Shown: one piece after another, positions 10,603 to 55,321 of the stretch
Layout: every line of letters begins with the position of its first letter
How positions within the stretch are numbered: position 1 is the first letter of the stretch
Assembly (NCBI RefSeq): GCF_056746865.1
Contig: NZ_CM163382.1
Length of the DNA stretch: 64,000 nt
Direction: 5' to 3' (one strand)
Notes under the pieces: generated by a model
Databases searched by the model: none
What the model saw: only the letters and a program-made list of their open reading frames with translations
Told to the model about the DNA's origin: nothing
Made by a program: the position numbers and the translations under genes

Positions 10603-12845
<2,243 letters not shown>

Positions 12846-18280: not shown

Positions 18281-18388
18281 GTCGCATCCGGCAATTGGTG
18301 CACGATGCCTGATGCGACGCTGGCGCGTCTTATCAGGCCTACATTGGTGCCGGATCGGTAGACCGGATAAGGCGTTCACGCCGCATTC
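18281..18388. repeat. REP/BIME cluster between convergent fre and fadA
   Basis: Repeated GCCTGATGCGACGC and GCCGGATaaggcgttcacgccgcATCCGGC-type palindromic units. Confidence 0.75.
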
Positions 18389-26318: not shown

Positions 26319-27860
<1,542 letters not shown>

Positions 27861-27928
27861 CCTTAAAGAATCGTTCTTTGAAGTGCTCACACAGATTGTC
27901 TGATGAAAATGAGCAGTAAAACCTCTAC

Positions 27929-28005
<77 letters not shown>

Positions 28006-28047
28006 AATTTGCACCGCAAATTTGAAGAGGTTTTAACTACATGTTAT

Positions 28048-28123
28048 GGGGCTATAGCTCAGCTGGGAGAGCGCCTGCTTTGCACGCAGGAGGTCTGCGG
28101 TTCGATCCCGCATAGCTCCACCA
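28048..28123 (+). tRNA. alaT: tRNA-Ala (TGC anticodon)
   Basis: GGGGCTATAGCTCAGCTGGGAGAGC...CTTTGCA...GCTCCACCA in the 16S-23S spacer. Confidence 0.95.
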
Positions 28124-28306
28124 TCTCTGTAGTGATTAAATAAAAAATACTTCAGAGTGTACCTGCAAAGGTTCACTGCGAAGTTTTGCTCTTTAAAAAT
28201 CTGGATCAAGCTGAAAATTGAAACACTGAACAACGAAAGTTGTTCGTGAGTCTCTCAAATTTTCGCAACACGATGATGAATCGAAAGAAACATCTTCGGG
28301 TTGTGA

Positions 28307-31208
<2,902 letters not shown>

Positions 31209-31300
31209 ACAACGCCGAAGCTGTTTTGGCGGATTGAGAGAAGATTTTCAGCCTGATACAGATTAAATCAGAACGCAGAAGCGGTCTGATAAACAGAATT

Positions 31301-31420
31301 TGCCTGGCGGCCTTAGCGCGGTGGTCCCACCTGACCCCATGCCGAACTCAGAAGTGAAACGCCGTAGCGCCGATGGTAGTGTGGGGTCTCCCCATGCGAG
31401 AGTAGGGAACTGCCAGGCAT
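31301..31420 (+). rRNA. rrfA: 5S ribosomal RNA
   Basis: TGCCTGGCGGCC...GGGAACTGCCAGGCAT, 120 nt. Confidence 0.97.
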
Positions 31421-37580: not shown

Positions 37581-40367
37581 ATGGTTCAGATCCCCCAAAA
37601 TCCACTTATCCTTGTAGATGGTTCATCTTATCTTTATCGCGCATATCACGCGTTTCCCCCGCTGACTAACAGCGCAGGCGAGCCGACCGGTGCGATGTAT
37701 GGTGTCCTCAACATGCTGCGCAGTCTGATCATGCAATATAAACCGACGCATGCAGCGGTGGTCTTTGACGCCAAGGGAAAAACCTTTCGTGATGAACTGT
37801 TTGAACATTACAAATCACATCGCCCGCCAATGCCGGACGATCTGCGTGCACAAATCGAACCCTTGCACGCGATGGTTAAAGCGATGGGACTGCCGCTGCT
37901 GGCGGTTTCTGGCGTAGAAGCGGACGACGTTATCGGTACTCTGGCGCGGGAAGCCGAAAAAGCCGGGCGTCCGGTGCTGATCAGCACTGGCGATAAAGAT
38001 ATGGCGCAGCTGGTGACGCCAAATATTACGCTTATCAATACCATGACGAATACCATCCTCGGCCCGGAAGAGGTGGTGAATAAGTACGGCGTGCCGCCAG
38101 AACTGATCATCGACTTCCTGGCGCTGATGGGTGACTCCTCTGATAACATCCCTGGCGTACCGGGCGTCGGTGAAAAAACCGCGCAGGCATTGCTGCAAGG
38201 TCTTGGCGGACTGGATACGCTGTATGCCGAGCCAGAAAAAATTGCTGGGTTGAGCTTCCGTGGCGCGAAAACAATGGCAGCGAAGCTCGAGCAAAACAAA
38301 GAAGTTGCTTATCTCTCATACCAGCTGGCGACGATTAAAACCGACGTTGAACTGGAGCTGACCTGTGAACAACTGGAAGTGCAGCAACCGGCGGCGGAAG
38401 AGTTGTTGGGGCTGTTCAAAAAGTATGAGTTCAAACGCTGGACTGCTGATGTCGAAGCGGGCAAATGGTTACAGGCTAAAGGGGCGAAACCCGCAGCCAG
38501 GCCGCAGGAAACCAGTGTTGCAGACGAAGCGCCAGAAGTGACGGCAACGGTGATTTCTTATGACAACTACGTCACCATCCTTGATGAAGAAACACTGAAA
38601 GCGTGGATTGCGAAGCTGGAAAAAGCGCCAGTATTTGCATTTGATACCGAAACCGACAGCCTCGATAACATCTCTGCCAACCTGGTCGGGCTTTCTTTTG
38701 CTATCGAGCCAGGCGTAGCGGCATATATTCCGGTTGCTCATGATTATCTTGATGCGCCCGATCAAATCTCTCGCGAGCGTGCACTCGAGTTGCTAAAACC
38801 GTTGCTGGAAAATGAAAAGGCGCTGAAGGTCGGGCAAAACCTGAAATACGACCGCGGTATTCTGGCGAATTACGGAATTGAGCTGCGTGGGATTGCGTTT
38901 GATACCATGCTGGAGTCCTACATTCTCAATAGCGTTGCCGGGCGTCACGATATGGACAGCCTCGCGGAACGTTGGTTGAAGCACAAAACCATCACTTTTG
39001 AAGAGATTGCGGGTAAAGGCAAAAATCAACTGACCTTTAACCAGATTGCCCTCGAAGAGGCCGGACGTTACGCCGCCGAAGATGCGGATGTCACCTTGCA
39101 GTTGCATCTGAAAATGTGGCCGGATCTGCAAAAACACAAAGGGCCGTTGAACGTCTTCGAGAATATCGAAATGCCGCTGGTGCCGGTGCTTTCACGCATT
39201 GAACGTAACGGTGTGAAGATCGATCCGAAAGTGCTGCACAATCATTCTGAAGAGCTCACTCTTCGTCTGGCTGAGCTGGAAAAGAAAGCGCATGAAATTG
39301 CAGGTGAGGAGTTTAACCTTTCCTCCACCAAGCAGTTGCAAACCATTCTGTTTGAAAAACAGGGAATTAAACCGCTGAAGAAAACGCCGGGTGGCGCGCC
39401 GTCAACGTCGGAAGAGGTACTGGAAGAACTGGCGCTGGACTATCCGTTGCCAAAAGTGATTCTGGAGTATCGTGGTCTGGCGAAGCTGAAATCGACCTAC
39501 ACCGACAAGCTGCCGCTGATGATCAACCCGAAAACCGGGCGTGTACATACCTCTTATCACCAGGCAGTAACTGCAACGGGACGTTTATCGTCAACCGATC
39601 CTAACCTGCAAAACATTCCGGTGCGTAACGAAGAAGGTCGTCGTATCCGCCAGGCGTTTATTGGGCCAGAGGATTATGTGATTGTCTCGGCGGACTACTC
39701 GCAGATTGAACTGCGCATTATGGCGCATCTCTCGCGTGACAAAGGCTTGCTGACCGCATTCGCGGAAGGAAAAGATATCCACCGGGCTACGGCGGCAGAA
39801 GTGTTTGGTTTGCCACTGGAAACCGTCACCAGCGAGCAACGCCGTAGCGCGAAAGCGATCAACTTTGGTCTGATTTATGGCATGAGTGCTTTCGGTCTGG
39901 CGCGGCAATTGAACATTCCACGTAAAGAAGCGCAGAAGTACATGGACCTTTACTTCGAACGCTACCCTGGCGTGCTGGAGTATATGGAACGCACCCGTGC
40001 TCAGGCGAAAGAGCAGGGCTACGTTGAAACACTGGACGGACGCCGTCTGTATCTGCCGGATATCAAATCCAGCAATGGTGCTCGTCGTGCAGCGGCTGAA
40101 CGTGCAGCCATTAACGCGCCAATGCAGGGAACCGCCGCCGACATTATCAAACGGGCGATGATTGCCGTTGATGCGTGGCTACAGGCTGAGCAACCGCGTG
40201 TGCGTATGATCATGCAGGTACACGATGAACTGGTATTTGAAGTTCATAAAGATGATGTCGATGCCGTCGCGAAGCAGATTCATCAACTGATGGAAAACTG
40301 TACCCGTCTGGATGTGCCGTTGCTGGTGGAAGTGGGGAGTGGCGAAAACTGGGATCAGGCGCACTAA
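37581..40367 (+). CDS. polA: DNA polymerase I
   Basis: 928-aa [28 protein letters not shown]... with 5'-3' exo, 3'-5' exo and polymerase domains. Confidence 0.98.
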
Positions 40368-40514
40368 GATTCGCCTGAACATGCCCTTTTTTCGTAAGTA
40401 AGCAACATAAGCTGTCACGTTTTGTGATGGCTATTAGAAATTCCTATGCAACAACTGAAAAAAAATTACAAAAAGTGCTTTCTGAACTGAACAAAAAAGA
40501 GTAAAGTTAGTCGC

Positions 40515-40623
40515 GTAGGGTACAGAGGTAAGATGTTCTATCTTTCAGACCTTTTACTTCACGTAATCGGATTTGGCTGAATATTTTAGCCGCCCCAGTC
40601 AGTAATGACTGGGGCGTTTTTTA
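40515..40623 (+). ncRNA. spf: Spot 42 small regulatory RNA
   Basis: GTAGGGTACAGAGGTAAGATGTTCTATCTTTCAGACCTTTTACTTCACGTAATCGGATTTGGCTG... ending in terminator GCCCCAGTCAGTAATGACTGGGGCGTTTTTT; recognised by sequence. Confidence 0.92.
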
Positions 40624-40647
40624 TTGGGCGAAAGAAAAGCTCTGTAA

Positions 40648-40730
40648 TGCCTGATGCGCCCTGTTTATCAGGCCAACGGTAGAAGTGTAATCTATTGAAT
40701 TTACGGGCCGGATACGCCACATCCGGCACA
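40648..40730. repeat. REP/BIME elements between spf and engB
   Basis: GCCTGATGCGCCctgtttATCAGGCC and GCCGGATacgccacATCCGGC palindromic units. Confidence 0.7.
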
Positions 40731-40748
40731 AGCATTAAGGCAAGAAAA

Positions 40749-41381
40749 TTATTCGCCGTCCTGCGTTTCTTCTACAGGCTGCATCTCGCTAAACCAGGTA
40801 TCCAGTTTCTGCCGCAGCTTGTCCACGCCTTGTTTCTTCAGTGAAGAGAACGTTTCAACCTGCACATCACCGTTAAACGCCAGCACCGCTTCACGCACCA
40901 TATTCAATTGCGCTTTACGTGCGCCGCTTGCCAGTTTGTCCGCTTTGGTCAGCAGCACCAGCACGGCGATATTGCTGTCTACCGCCCACTCAATCATCTG
41001 CTGATCCAAATCTTTCAGCGGATGGCGAATATCCATTAGCACCACCAGACCTTGCAGGCTCTGACGTTTTTCGAGGTATTCGCCGAGCGCGCGCTGCCAT
41101 TTGCGCTTCATCTCTTCCGGGACTTCCGCGTAGCCATAGCCGGGCAAGTCAACCAGACGCTTGCCGTCAGCCACTTCAAACAGGTTGATAAGCTGGGTGC
41201 GCCCTGGGGTTTTTGAGGTCCGCGCCAGGCTTTTCTGGTTAGTCAGCGTGTTCAGCGCGCTGGATTTACCTGCGTTGGAACGGCCTGCAAAAGCCACTTC
41301 AATTCCGGTATCGGAAGGTAAGTGGCGAATATCAGGCGCACTCATCACAAAATGCGTCTGTTGATAATTCAAATTAGTCAA
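40749..41381 (-). CDS. engB: Ribosome biogenesis GTPase EngB (YihA)
   Basis: 210-aa ORF with G1 motif GRSNAGKSS; matches YihA/EngB. Confidence 0.93.
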
Positions 41382-41651: not shown

Positions 41652-41896
41652 ATAGAGCGAGGACGCTAACAGGAACAATGACTCAGGATGAGGGTCAGGA
41701 GCGCCAGGAGGCGAAGACAGAGGATTGTCAGGAAGACAAACGTCCGGAGACGTAATTAAACGGAAATGGAATCAACACGGATTGTTCCGGCTAATGGAAA
41801 AACAGGGTGTGTTGGCGGCCTGCAAGGATTGTAAGACCCGTTAAGGGTTATGAGTCAGGAAAAAAGGCGACAGAGTAATCTGTCGCCTTTTTTCTT
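41652..41896 (+). ncRNA. csrC: CsrC small RNA (CsrA-sequestering)
   Basis: ATAGAGCGAGGACGCTAACAGGAACAATGACTCAGGATGAGGGTCAGGAGCGCCAGGAGG...; dense AGGA/CAGGA motifs; intrinsic terminator GGCGACAGAGTAATCTGTCGCCTTTTTT at 3' end. Confidence 0.88.
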
Positions 41897-41962
41897 TGCT
41901 TGCTTTCTGTTAGATTCCGCCGCAAATCTATACTGAATAAAACGGCTAAAAGACGAACCATT

Positions 41963-44100: not shown

Positions 44101-44192
44101 TGCCTGATGCGCTACGCTTATCAGGCCTACAAAACCTGTTGAAAATATTGCTTTTGTAGGCCGGATAAGGCGTTCACGCCGCATCCGGCATG
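44101..44192. repeat. REP/BIME elements downstream of hemN
   Basis: GCCTGATGCGCTACGCTTATCAGGCCTAC ... GCCGGATAAGGCGTTCACGCCGCATCCGGC. Confidence 0.75.
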
Positions 44193-48582: not shown

Positions 48583-48720
48583 AGCGAAATCTGTGCCAAC
48601 TTTTAAATTGCCCCTAAAAGGCGTTATCATGCTTAACATCGTGCAAAAGGGCTGCACCATGATATGAATGTTGCACCAATATAGTGCTTCAATGGAAACA
48701 TTAAGCACCATATTGGTGCA
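48583..48720 (-). promoter_or_regulatory. glnAp2 sigma54 promoter (TTGGCACAGATTTCGCT at 48583-48599, minus strand) with upstream NtrC enhancer sites (48672-48687 and 48705-48720)
   Basis: -24 GG / -12 GC element on the glnA strand; palindromes TGCACCAATATAGTGC and GCACCATATTGGTGCA further upstream. Confidence 0.8.
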
Positions 48721-48871
48721 ATGACCTTTGGATAACCCTTTTTATGCTCCGTGAAAGCGATCACAAAGGGACTCTGCAATACTTGTTTGCGGAGGATGTT
48801 TGTGATCCTGTTTTGTAGTGCGATTAATCCGTGTACAATAACGCGCTATTTCTAATGCCTGAGGCAAAGTT

Positions 48872-51629: not shown

Positions 51630-53871
<2,242 letters not shown>

Positions 53872-55243: not shown

Positions 55244-55321
55244 GGCCGGATGTGGCTTAATCCGGCCAACGGAAACCGTATCAACCGTAGGCCGGATAAG
55301 GCGTTTTCGCCGCATCCGGCA
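55244..55321. repeat. REP elements between convergent yihN and ompL
   Basis: GGCCGGATgtggcttaATCCGGCC and GCCGGATAAGGCGTTTTCGCCGCATCCGGC palindromic units. Confidence 0.75.

What the first reader, a model, noticed from the sequence alone, without database searches (positions are those of the whole stretch)
40515..40623. Spot 42 (spf) sRNA immediately downstream of polA
A 109-nt sequence matching Spot 42, with its own terminator, sits in the polA-engB intergenic region. It is a CRP-repressed regulator of secondary carbon-source genes and explains most of the 380-bp polA-engB gap.
Basis: partly seen in the sequence, partly recalled or inferred. Interest (0 to 1): 0.3.

Follow-up and report, generated by a model that had tools for sequence, protein, structure and literature searches.

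The report
Spot 42 (spf) small RNA gene

Summary
Window 40515-40623 (+) is the 109-nt spf gene for Spot 42 RNA. It scores 122.8 bits against Rfam RF00021 (threshold 80). It is 109/109 identical to E. coli K-12 spf and at least 99% identical in 5424 of 5426 complete E. coli genomes. It lies between polA and yihA/engB and ends in its own terminator (hairpin 40591-40616 plus T6). The three-hairpin fold is supported by compensatory changes across 49 distinct sequences from about 50 genera.

- The published E. coli CRP site sits at 40420-40441, centred at -84.5. It does not overlap the promoter at 40460-40515.
- The RNA fills 29% of the 381-bp gap. The rest is the polA terminator, about 125 bp of spf regulatory DNA and a pair of REP elements.
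- Spot 42 is now classed as a dual-function RNA. The 15-aa SpfP reading frame is intact at 40533-40580.

This is already known and of low interest. One side observation may be worth following: two related, deeply conserved blocks lie upstream of spf at about -121 and -58. The first falls inside a published Salmonella SirA ChIP-exo site. Their function is not established.

The parts
37581..40367 (+). polA (DNA polymerase I), the upstream neighbour
   Evidence: A 928-aa ORF, the same length as K-12 polA b3863. polA lies upstream of spf in most Enterobacterales and Vibrionales loci.
40352..40392 (+). polA terminator: an imperfect hairpin spanning the polA stop codon, followed by U6
   Evidence: Fold of 40340-40400: -20.8 kcal/mol, z = -3.2, hairpin followed by UUUUUU. 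Inferred; not mapped experimentally here.
40394..40412 (+). Conserved upstream block (a), GTAAGTAAGCAACATAAGC, about -121 to -103; function unknown
   Evidence: Nearly invariant in an alignment of 23 sequences (the window plus 22 Enterobacterales genera). It stays at -120 to -122 from spf even where polA is 0.3-3 kb away, as in Photorhabdus. It lies inside the Salmonella SirA ChIP-exo site listed for spf (PMC4682653 S2 Table).
40420..40441 (+). cAMP-CRP binding site of the spf promoter, centred at -84.5
   Evidence: Exact match to the published E. coli site TTTTGTGATGGCTATTAGAAAT (for the paper; for the match). It is the best CRP-core match in the spacer, with 2 of 10 mismatches. It is conserved at -84 in Enterobacteriaceae genera. 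As a pattern alone it is not above chance in the window.
40456..40477 (+). Conserved A-rich block (b), TGAAAAAAAATTACAAAAAGTG, -59 to -38; UP-element-like and related in sequence to block (a)
   Evidence: Conserved from Vibrio to E. coli. Matches 11 of 14 specified positions of the UP-element consensus. An UP-element role is inferred.
40480..40485 (+). Putative -35 hexamer TTCTGA (3 of 6 matches to consensus)
   Evidence: Placed 16 bp upstream of the -10 hexamer. It aligns with TTTGCA in Serratia. Inferred; the consensus promoter scan found nothing.
40502..40507 (+). Putative -10 hexamer TAAAGT
   Evidence: Lies 7 nt upstream of the K-12-annotated 5' end. TA(A/G)AGT is conserved across the Enterobacterales genera aligned. 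Inferred.
40515..40623 (+). spf gene, Spot 42 RNA (109 nt; the K-12 RefSeq annotation extends to 40625)
   Evidence: Rfam RF00021 at 122.8 bits; 100% identical to K-12 b3864.
40524..40528 (+). Shine-Dalgarno-like AGAGG for spfP, paired within hairpin 1
   Evidence: Read directly from the sequence. The paper describes an SD and AUG sequestered in a stem-loop (PMC8916003).
40533..40580 (+). spfP coding sequence: 15 aa MFYLSDLLLHVIGFG plus a UGA stop
   Evidence: Translation. Corresponds to the K-12 spfP CDS b4837. The ATG is kept in 122 of 122 loci and the 15-aa length in 116.
40563..40574 (+). Single-stranded linker (nt 49-60, GUAAUCGGAUUU), corresponding to base-pairing region III; it includes the GGA that CsrA binds
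   Evidence: Unpaired in both the MFE and centroid folds. It contains the GUA and GGA triplets whose mutation abolishes region III function (PMC5991649). The CsrA GGA site is described in PMC12612679.
40575..40591 (+). Hairpin 2 (nt 61-77)
   Evidence: Fold. Two pairs show compensatory changes, for example G-C to A-U in the Morganellaceae genera Proteus, Providencia, Morganella, Moellerella, Photorhabdus and Xenorhabdus.
40591..40622 (+). Rho-independent terminator: hairpin plus T6
   Evidence: Terminator scan and perfect 11-nt inverted repeat. 8 of 10 pairs show compensatory changes across genera.
40649..40673 (.). REP element (shortened, GCCTGATGCG...TTATCAGGC)
   Evidence: REP-type palindrome search: 7 sites in the window (14 matches counting both strands) against 0.14 matches expected. 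Aligns with other REP pairs in the window.
40707..40727 (.). REP element in the opposite orientation, with a 9-bp shorter stem
40749..41381 (-). yihA (engB), ribosome-biogenesis GTPase; convergent downstream neighbour
   Evidence: A 210-aa ORF, the same length as K-12 yihA b3865. yihA is convergent downstream of spf in nearly all loci that extend that far.

Best explanation
Window 40515-40623 is the E. coli spf gene. It is transcribed from its own promoter, which lies about 150 bp after polA. The core promoter is weak (-35 TTCTGA, -10 TAAAGT) and sits behind an A-rich UP-like block. Transcription ends at its own intrinsic terminator and gives the 109-nt Hfq-binding Spot 42 RNA. When glucose is scarce, cAMP-CRP binds the site at 40420-40441 and lowers spf transcription. 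When glucose is present, Spot 42 accumulates. It pairs through its single-stranded regions with mRNAs for the uptake and catabolism of non-preferred carbon sources (galK, srlA, fucI, nanT, gltA and others) and represses them. This forms a feed-forward loop with CRP. The same transcript is also a very short mRNA. The frame at 40533-40580 encodes the 15-aa protein SpfP, which binds CRP and blocks activation of some CRP-dependent promoters; SpfP is made more at high temperature. Shown here: identity, structure, synteny, presence of the CRP-site sequence and an intact ORF. Taken from the literature: CRP repression, Hfq dependence, the targets and SpfP function. Inferred: the promoter hexamers and the UP-element role.
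For: Rfam RF00021 full-length hit at 122.8 bits against a gathering score of 80. 109/109 identity to K-12 spf, and at least 99% identity, single-copy, in 5424 of 5426 E. coli genomes. K-12 RefSeq annotates spf b3864 and spfP b4837 at the corresponding positions. Stable three-hairpin fold, z = -5.1, with a terminator. On 49 distinct sequences, 98.9% of cells are paired and 10 pairs carry compensatory changes; no shuffle of 500 reached this, and slid controls gave 38-52% paired. The polA-spf-yihA order is conserved in Enterobacterales and Vibrionales, and in the one Alteromonadales locus (Aliagarivorans) that held all three genes. The published CRP site sequence is present exactly at 40420-40441. 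The ORF translates to MFYLSDLLLHVIGFG. Function comes from PMC8916003, PMC5991649 and PMC12612679.
Against: Nothing here contradicts it. Three caveats apply. No expression data exist for this particular strain. The sigma-70 consensus scan found no promoter, so the promoter is placed by homology to K-12 and by conservation. The CRP-core pattern alone is not above chance in the window (20 matches against 26.5 expected), so the site rests on published binding work that I could read only second-hand (Polayes 1988 is not held).
Confidence: 0.97

Rival explanations
1. The locus is Spot 42 acting only as a non-coding base-pairing RNA. On this view the 15-codon frame is a by-product of RNA-level conservation and has no protein function in vivo at native expression levels.
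For: The SD and AUG are buried in hairpin 1. The UGA stop lies in the structurally constrained 5' arm of hairpin 2, so the frame could be kept by RNA constraints alone. Early work concluded that Spot 42 is not an mRNA (summarised). The SpfP phenotypes were obtained by overexpression.
Against: A chromosomally SPA-tagged SpfP was detected, and the protein binds CRP (PMC8916003). K-12 RefSeq now annotates the CDS. The ATG is kept in 122 of 122 loci and the 15-aa length in 116. Of 8 variable sites in codons 8-15, 4 are third positions and 3 of those are synonymous, even inside base-pairing region III. The numbers are small, and the sample was selected with a pattern that fixed nt 13-18 and 22-37; the ATG triplet was left free.
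Confidence: 0.1
2. The RNA is not an independent gene but a polA 3'-UTR or read-through product, processed to about 109 nt.
For: It lies only 147 bp after the polA stop codon, on the same strand.
Against: A polA terminator hairpin plus U6 lies between them. A conserved -10 hexamer and upstream blocks keep fixed spacing to the spf 5' end. In Photorhabdus, Providencia, Proteus and Morganella, polA is 0.3-3.3 kb away, yet spf and its upstream block are unchanged. In Aeromonas, polA is not upstream at all.
Confidence: 0.01
3. The match is a chance resemblance, or the copy is decayed and non-functional.
For: None.
Against: E = 3.6e-24, 100% identity to the functional K-12 gene and conserved synteny.
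Confidence: 0.005

Closest known systems
E. coli K-12 spf (b3864, Spot 42 RNA; Rfam RF00021) with spfP (b4837)
   Same: Identical 109-nt sequence, identical 15-aa ORF, the same neighbours (polA, yihA, csrC, yihI), the same CRP site sequence and the same terminator.
   Different: Only the flanks differ from K-12. There is one extra C in the polA terminator (40384) and five substitutions in the REP region downstream of spf. None falls in the RNA or in DNA from the conserved block (a) up to the 5' end.
Spot 42 of Vibrionaceae and Aeromonas (for example Aliivibrio salmonicida, PMC3295665)
   Same: Nucleotides 1-41 are identical. The three-hairpin plan is the same. A 15-codon frame is kept (MFYLSDLLFHVIGLG in Vibrio...HVIECG in Aeromonas). 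yihA is convergent downstream, and polA is upstream in Vibrionales. The -58 A-rich block is also kept.
   Different: Hairpin 2 and the terminator differ through compensatory changes. The spacer to yihA is 0.5-1.2 kb and holds VSsrna24 in Aliivibrio, instead of 125 bp with REP elements. The E. coli-type CRP site and block (a) were not found by my patterns.
Other dual-function sRNAs of carbon metabolism (SgrS/SgrT, AzuCR, VcdRP)
   Same: Each is one transcript that both base-pairs with mRNAs and encodes a small protein acting in the same pathway. AzuCR and VcdRP are also CRP-repressed.
   Different: They are unrelated in sequence. [quoted passage not shown] In SgrST they are separate.

Membership tests
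Spot 42 RNA (Rfam RF00021 / E. coli spf) | Scores at or above the curated gathering threshold of the covariance model over its full length | tested here: met
   122.8 bits against 80, model positions 1-115 of 115, E 3.6e-24.
Spot 42 RNA (Rfam RF00021 / E. coli spf) | Sequence identity to the experimentally characterised E. coli K-12 RNA, including the single-stranded base-pairing regions | tested here: met
   109/109 identical. The region III triplets GUA and GGA are present.
Spot 42 RNA (Rfam RF00021 / E. coli spf) | Three-hairpin secondary structure ending in a Rho-independent terminator with a U-tail | tested here: met
   MFE fold, z = -5.1. Terminator. 98.9% of cells paired and 10 pairs with compensatory changes over 49 sequences, above both the shuffled and the slid controls. 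Hairpin 1 is invariant, so it is neither supported nor contradicted by covariation.
Spot 42 RNA (Rfam RF00021 / E. coli spf) | Genomic context: between polA and yihA/engB, on the polA strand | tested here: met
   The context is conserved across about 50 genera.
Spot 42 RNA (Rfam RF00021 / E. coli spf) | Transcription repressed by cAMP-CRP through a CRP site upstream of the promoter | tested here: inconclusive
   The published site sequence is present exactly at 40420-40441. Repression itself cannot be tested with sequence tools, and the pattern alone is not above chance.
Spot 42 RNA (Rfam RF00021 / E. coli spf) | Hfq-dependent base pairing with target mRNAs (galK and others) | not testable with these tools
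   Known from the literature. Sequence identity makes it very likely.
Dual-function sRNA encoding SpfP | Intact SD-AUG-15 codons-UGA frame identical to K-12 spfP | tested here: met
   MFYLSDLLLHVIGFG* at 40533-40580, corresponding to K-12 b4837.
Dual-function sRNA encoding SpfP | The peptide is translated and binds CRP | not testable with these tools
   Shown for K-12 in PMC8916003.
UvrY/SirA (GacA-type) regulated sRNA promoter (considered for upstream block a) | 18-bp inverted repeat TGTAAGN6CTTACA far upstream of the promoter | tested here: not met
   Block (a), CGTAAGTAAGCAACATAA, has only a left half-site, and the right half does not match. ChIP-exo enrichment at spf is reported, but regulation by SirA was not seen in Salmonella.

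The most novel reading that the evidence does not exclude
The two related, deeply conserved blocks upstream of spf are block (a) at about -121 (GTAA-N-TAAGC-A/T-ACA) and block (b) at about -58 (TGTAAGTAAACTACAAAAA in Serratia, Rahnella and Hafnia; TGAAAAAAAATTACAAAAA in E. coli and Vibrio). They could be paired binding sites, about six helical turns apart, for a regulator of spf other than CRP. Candidates are UvrY/SirA, whose Salmonella ChIP-exo site covers block (a), or an unidentified factor. That would add a second transcriptional input, older than the enterobacterial CRP site, to a textbook sRNA.
Probability: 0.2. Interest if true: 0.35.

Novelty: already known. Interest (0 to 1): 0.08.

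Why it matters
It matters little as a discovery. Spot 42 has been known since 1973, its targets since 2002-2011 and its peptide since 2022. The value here is corrective. The locus should be annotated as a dual-function gene (spf plus spfP). The CRP site should be placed at -84.5 rather than over the core promoter. The rest of the intergenic region should be assigned to the polA terminator, conserved spf upstream DNA and REP elements. Most of the RefSeq E. coli records listed carried no feature under this match, so flagging it is still useful for annotation.

Tried and rejected
- The sigma-70 consensus scan of 40300-40800 found no promoter. I placed the promoter by homology to the K-12 5' end and by conservation instead.
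The best core matches there have 4 of 10 mismatches, which is background.
- I tried to show that the downstream segment is repetitive by BLAST against all E. coli genomes. The median was one place per genome. The test is uninformative, because 25-35-nt REP units cannot reach the E-value limit in a 28-Gb database. A REP-type palindrome search within the window replaced it: 7 sites (14 matches counting both strands) against 0.14 matches expected.
- The repeat finder with a minimum arm of 8 nt saw only the terminator, because the REP arms are 7 nt.
- A full UvrY/SirA 18-bp inverted repeat in block (a) is not present.
- CRP, Fis, IHF, ArcA, TyrR and DnaA consensus sequences were compared by eye with blocks (a) and (b). 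None fitted convincingly. No tool test was run for these, and they are not claimed.
- Polayes 1988, Beisel and Storz 2011, and Baekkedal and Haugen 2015 could not be read. The CRP site and the region definitions therefore come second-hand from PMC3295665, PMC5991649 and PMC8916003.

Full report
**What is there.** Window 40515-40623 (+) reads GTAGGGTACAGAGGTAAGATGTTCTATCTTTCAGACCTTTTACTTCACGTAATCGGATTTGGCTGAATATTTTAGCCGCCCCAGTCAGTAATGACTGGGGCGTTTTTTA. A scan of the whole window against Rfam 15 gave a full-length match to RF00021 (Spot_42) at 40505-40623, scoring 122.8 bits against a gathering score of 80, with E = 3.6e-24. A permissive rescan of the intergenic region alone gave the same match, and nothing else came near its own threshold. 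The model begins 10 nt upstream of the mature 5' end, which explains the different start coordinate.

**Identity with the known gene.**
- Aligned to E. coli K-12 MG1655, every base from 40385 to 40639 is identical. This stretch covers the RNA, its promoter region and its terminator. The only differences in the 381-bp polA-yihA gap are one extra C at 40384 and five substitutions downstream of the gene.
- K-12 RefSeq annotates spf (b3864) at 4049899-4050009, which corresponds to window 40515-40625. It annotates spfP (b4837, 'dual-function small protein SpfP') at 4049917-4049964, which corresponds to window 40533-40580.
- The 109 nt occur once, at 99% identity or more, in 5424 of 5426 complete E. 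coli genomes.
- The window is therefore an E. coli chromosome segment. The best matches for the gap are 99.7% identical, to non-K-12 strains.
- Most of the RefSeq records listed carry no annotated feature under the match. That may be why the locus looked worth flagging.

**Anatomy of the RNA.**
- The RNA folds into three hairpins (nt 1-48, 61-77 and 78-101) followed by a U-tail. The MFE is -40.6 kcal/mol against -23.1 ± 3.4 for shuffles (z = -5.1), and none of 200 shuffles folded as well.
- The terminator scan found one site in 40300-40800: the hairpin at 40591-40616 (11 pairs, 8 G-C) followed by TTTTTT.
- Nt 49-60 (window 40563-40574, GUAAUCGGAUUU) are unpaired. They contain the GUA and GGA triplets whose mutation abolishes region III function in E. 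coli and Salmonella (PMC5991649). The GGA is also the triplet bound by CsrA (PMC12612679).

**Comparative evidence.** One plain-DNA scan of the species-representative genome collection used GGTAAGNNNTTCTATCTTTCAGACC, with the start-codon triplet left free.
- Nt 1-12, which the pattern did not constrain, are the same in all but one locus (Pantoea stewartii L026, which differs at the 5' end).
- Synteny is strong. polA ends about 150 nt upstream in most Enterobacteriaceae and about 180 nt upstream in Vibrio. yihA is convergent downstream in nearly all loci long enough to show it.
- On 49 distinct sequences, the E. coli structure is formed in 98.9% of cells. Ten pairs show compensatory double changes: 8 of 10 in the terminator and 2 of 7 in hairpin 2. 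No shuffle of 500 reached this, and sliding the 3' partner by 1-3 columns dropped pairing to 38-52%.
- Hairpin 1 is essentially invariant. Most of it was fixed by the search pattern, so it offers no covariation either way.

**The coding function.**
- Window 40533-40580 translates to MFYLSDLLLHVIGFG followed by a stop.
- Aoyama et al. 2022 (PMC8916003) showed that this frame is translated, more so at 42-45 C. They also showed that SpfP binds CRP and blocks activation of some CRP-dependent promoters.
- In my sample the ATG is present in 122 of 122 loci and the frame is 15 codons long in 116. The exceptions are a UGA-to-UGU change in two Yersinia species and one Vibrio, a frameshift in Aliagarivorans, a diverged Bowmanella copy and one locus cut by a contig end.
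- Of the eight variable sites in codons 8-15, four are third positions and three of those are synonymous (TTA/TTG, GTA/GTT, ATC/ATT). Two of the three synonymous sites (GTA/GTT, ATC/ATT) fall inside base-pairing region III.
- This hints at protein-level constraint. The numbers are small, however, and the sample is biased by the search pattern.

**Regulatory DNA.**
- Hansen et al. 2012 (PMC3295665, citing Polayes 1988) give the E. coli spf CRP site as TTTTGTGATGGCTATTAGAAAT. That sequence occurs once in the window, at 40420-40441. Its 16-bp core is centred at -84.5 from the 5' end.
- It is the best CRP-core match between polA and spf, with 2 of 10 mismatches.
- As a bare pattern the site is not above chance in the window (20 matches against 26.5 expected). 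Its standing therefore rests on the published binding work.
- A TGTGA-N6-TNANA motif sits at -84 (-83 in two genera) in about a dozen Enterobacteriaceae genera plus one Pantoea locus, and at -74 in E. albertii, which has a 10-bp deletion. My pattern did not find it in Yersinia, Serratia, Erwinia, Photorhabdus, Vibrio or Aeromonas.
- The consensus promoter scan found nothing. By conservation and spacing I place the -10 hexamer at TAAAGT (40502-40507) and the -35 hexamer at TTCTGA (40480-40485), with a 16-bp spacer. The A-rich block at 40456-40477 matches 11 of 14 specified UP-element positions. These placements are inferences.

**What fills the rest of the gap.**
- The RNA is 109 of 381 bp (29%).
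- Upstream lies a polA terminator: a hairpin spanning the stop codon plus U6, at 40352-40392, with z = -3.2.
- Then come about 125 bp of conserved spf upstream DNA.
- Downstream are two REP-type palindromes in opposite orientation, at 40649-40673 and 40707-40727. Such palindromes occur at 7 sites in the window (14 matches counting both strands) against 0.14 matches expected. This pair aligns with the REP pairs at 44.1 kb and 55.2 kb.

**Side observation.**
- Block (a), GTAAGTAAGCAACATAAGC at 40394-40412 (about -121 to -103), is nearly invariant across Enterobacterales. This includes genera that lack the CRP site.
- Block (a) keeps its distance to spf even where polA is 0.3-3 kb away. It therefore belongs to spf, not to polA.
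- A related block sits at about -58. It reads TGTAAGTAAACTACAAAAA in Serratia, Rahnella and Hafnia, and TGAAAAAAAATTACAAAAA in E. coli and Vibrio.
- Zere et al. 2015 list spf among the strongest non-csrB/C ChIP-exo targets of UvrY/SirA. The 81-bp Salmonella site covers block (a) plus the CRP site, while the E. coli site spans -13 to +68 (PMC4682653).
- Block (a) has only a left half of the UvrY consensus TGTAAGN6CTTACA. SirA did not affect spf-lacZ in Salmonella (PMC7591399).
- What these blocks do is therefore open.

**Verdict.** This is the known Spot 42/spf gene, intact and identical to the K-12 copy. The CRP-site position, the 'most of the gap' statement and the omission of SpfP need correction. 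Novelty: already known. Interest: low.

Noticed in passing
window 40394-40412 and 40456-40474: Two related, deeply conserved blocks lie upstream of spf, at about -121 and -58 (consensus roughly TG(T/A)AA-N5-YTACA followed by A-rich sequence), about 64 bp apart. The first lies inside the Salmonella SirA ChIP-exo site reported for spf. The second overlaps the UP-element position and is conserved from Vibrio to E. coli. No known regulator's consensus fits convincingly.
   Followed up: partly
window 40649-40673 and 40707-40727; also 18307-18338, 44102-44189, 55245-55320: REP-type palindromes. The pair between spf and yihA is a shortened, BIME-like pair. The linker between them contains an IHF-like ATTCAATAGATTA on the minus strand, judged by eye only.
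   Followed up: partly
window 41652-41905 (+): The CsrC sRNA (Rfam RF00084, 277.9 bits) lies just beyond yihA, about 1 kb from spf. Published work links the two: Spot 42 raises CsrC levels in Salmonella, and CsrA binds Spot 42.
   Followed up: no
window 53054-53176 (-), 48683-48790 (+), 10957-11208 (+), 28191-28299 (+): Other Rfam gathering-score hits: isrC (150 bits), ES222 (133 bits), Erse (320 bits) and StyR-44 (125 bits, in the rRNA spacer just before the 23S gene). K-12 annotates no ncRNA in the interval I fetched (4056500-4064500), which by a constant offset from spf should include the isrC position. I did not align the window to it, so the window may differ from K-12 there.
   Followed up: partly
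window 26319-31418 (+): A complete rRNA operon (16S, two tRNA genes, 23S, 5S) lies about 9 kb upstream of polA. K-12 has an rrn operon upstream of polA (from memory, rrnA with tRNA-Ile and tRNA-Ala); not checked here.
   Followed up: no
E. coli genome collection: Two of the 5424 spf matches are on records labelled as plasmids, and 2 of 5426 complete genomes have no match. Most of the RefSeq records listed carry no annotated feature over spf.
   Followed up: no
L026 (Pantoea stewartii), L062 (Bowmanella), L115 (Aliagarivorans): Atypical spf copies. P. stewartii has a rearranged 5' end (TACAGAGGTACAGGTAAG...). Bowmanella keeps only nt 1-40 and then goes straight into a terminator. Aliagarivorans has a 1-nt deletion that breaks the SpfP frame.
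   Followed up: no
L009 (Escherichia albertii), aligned to window 40460-40470: A 10-bp deletion (one helical turn) in the A-rich block moves the CRP site from -84.5 to -74.5 while keeping its helical phase.
   Followed up: no
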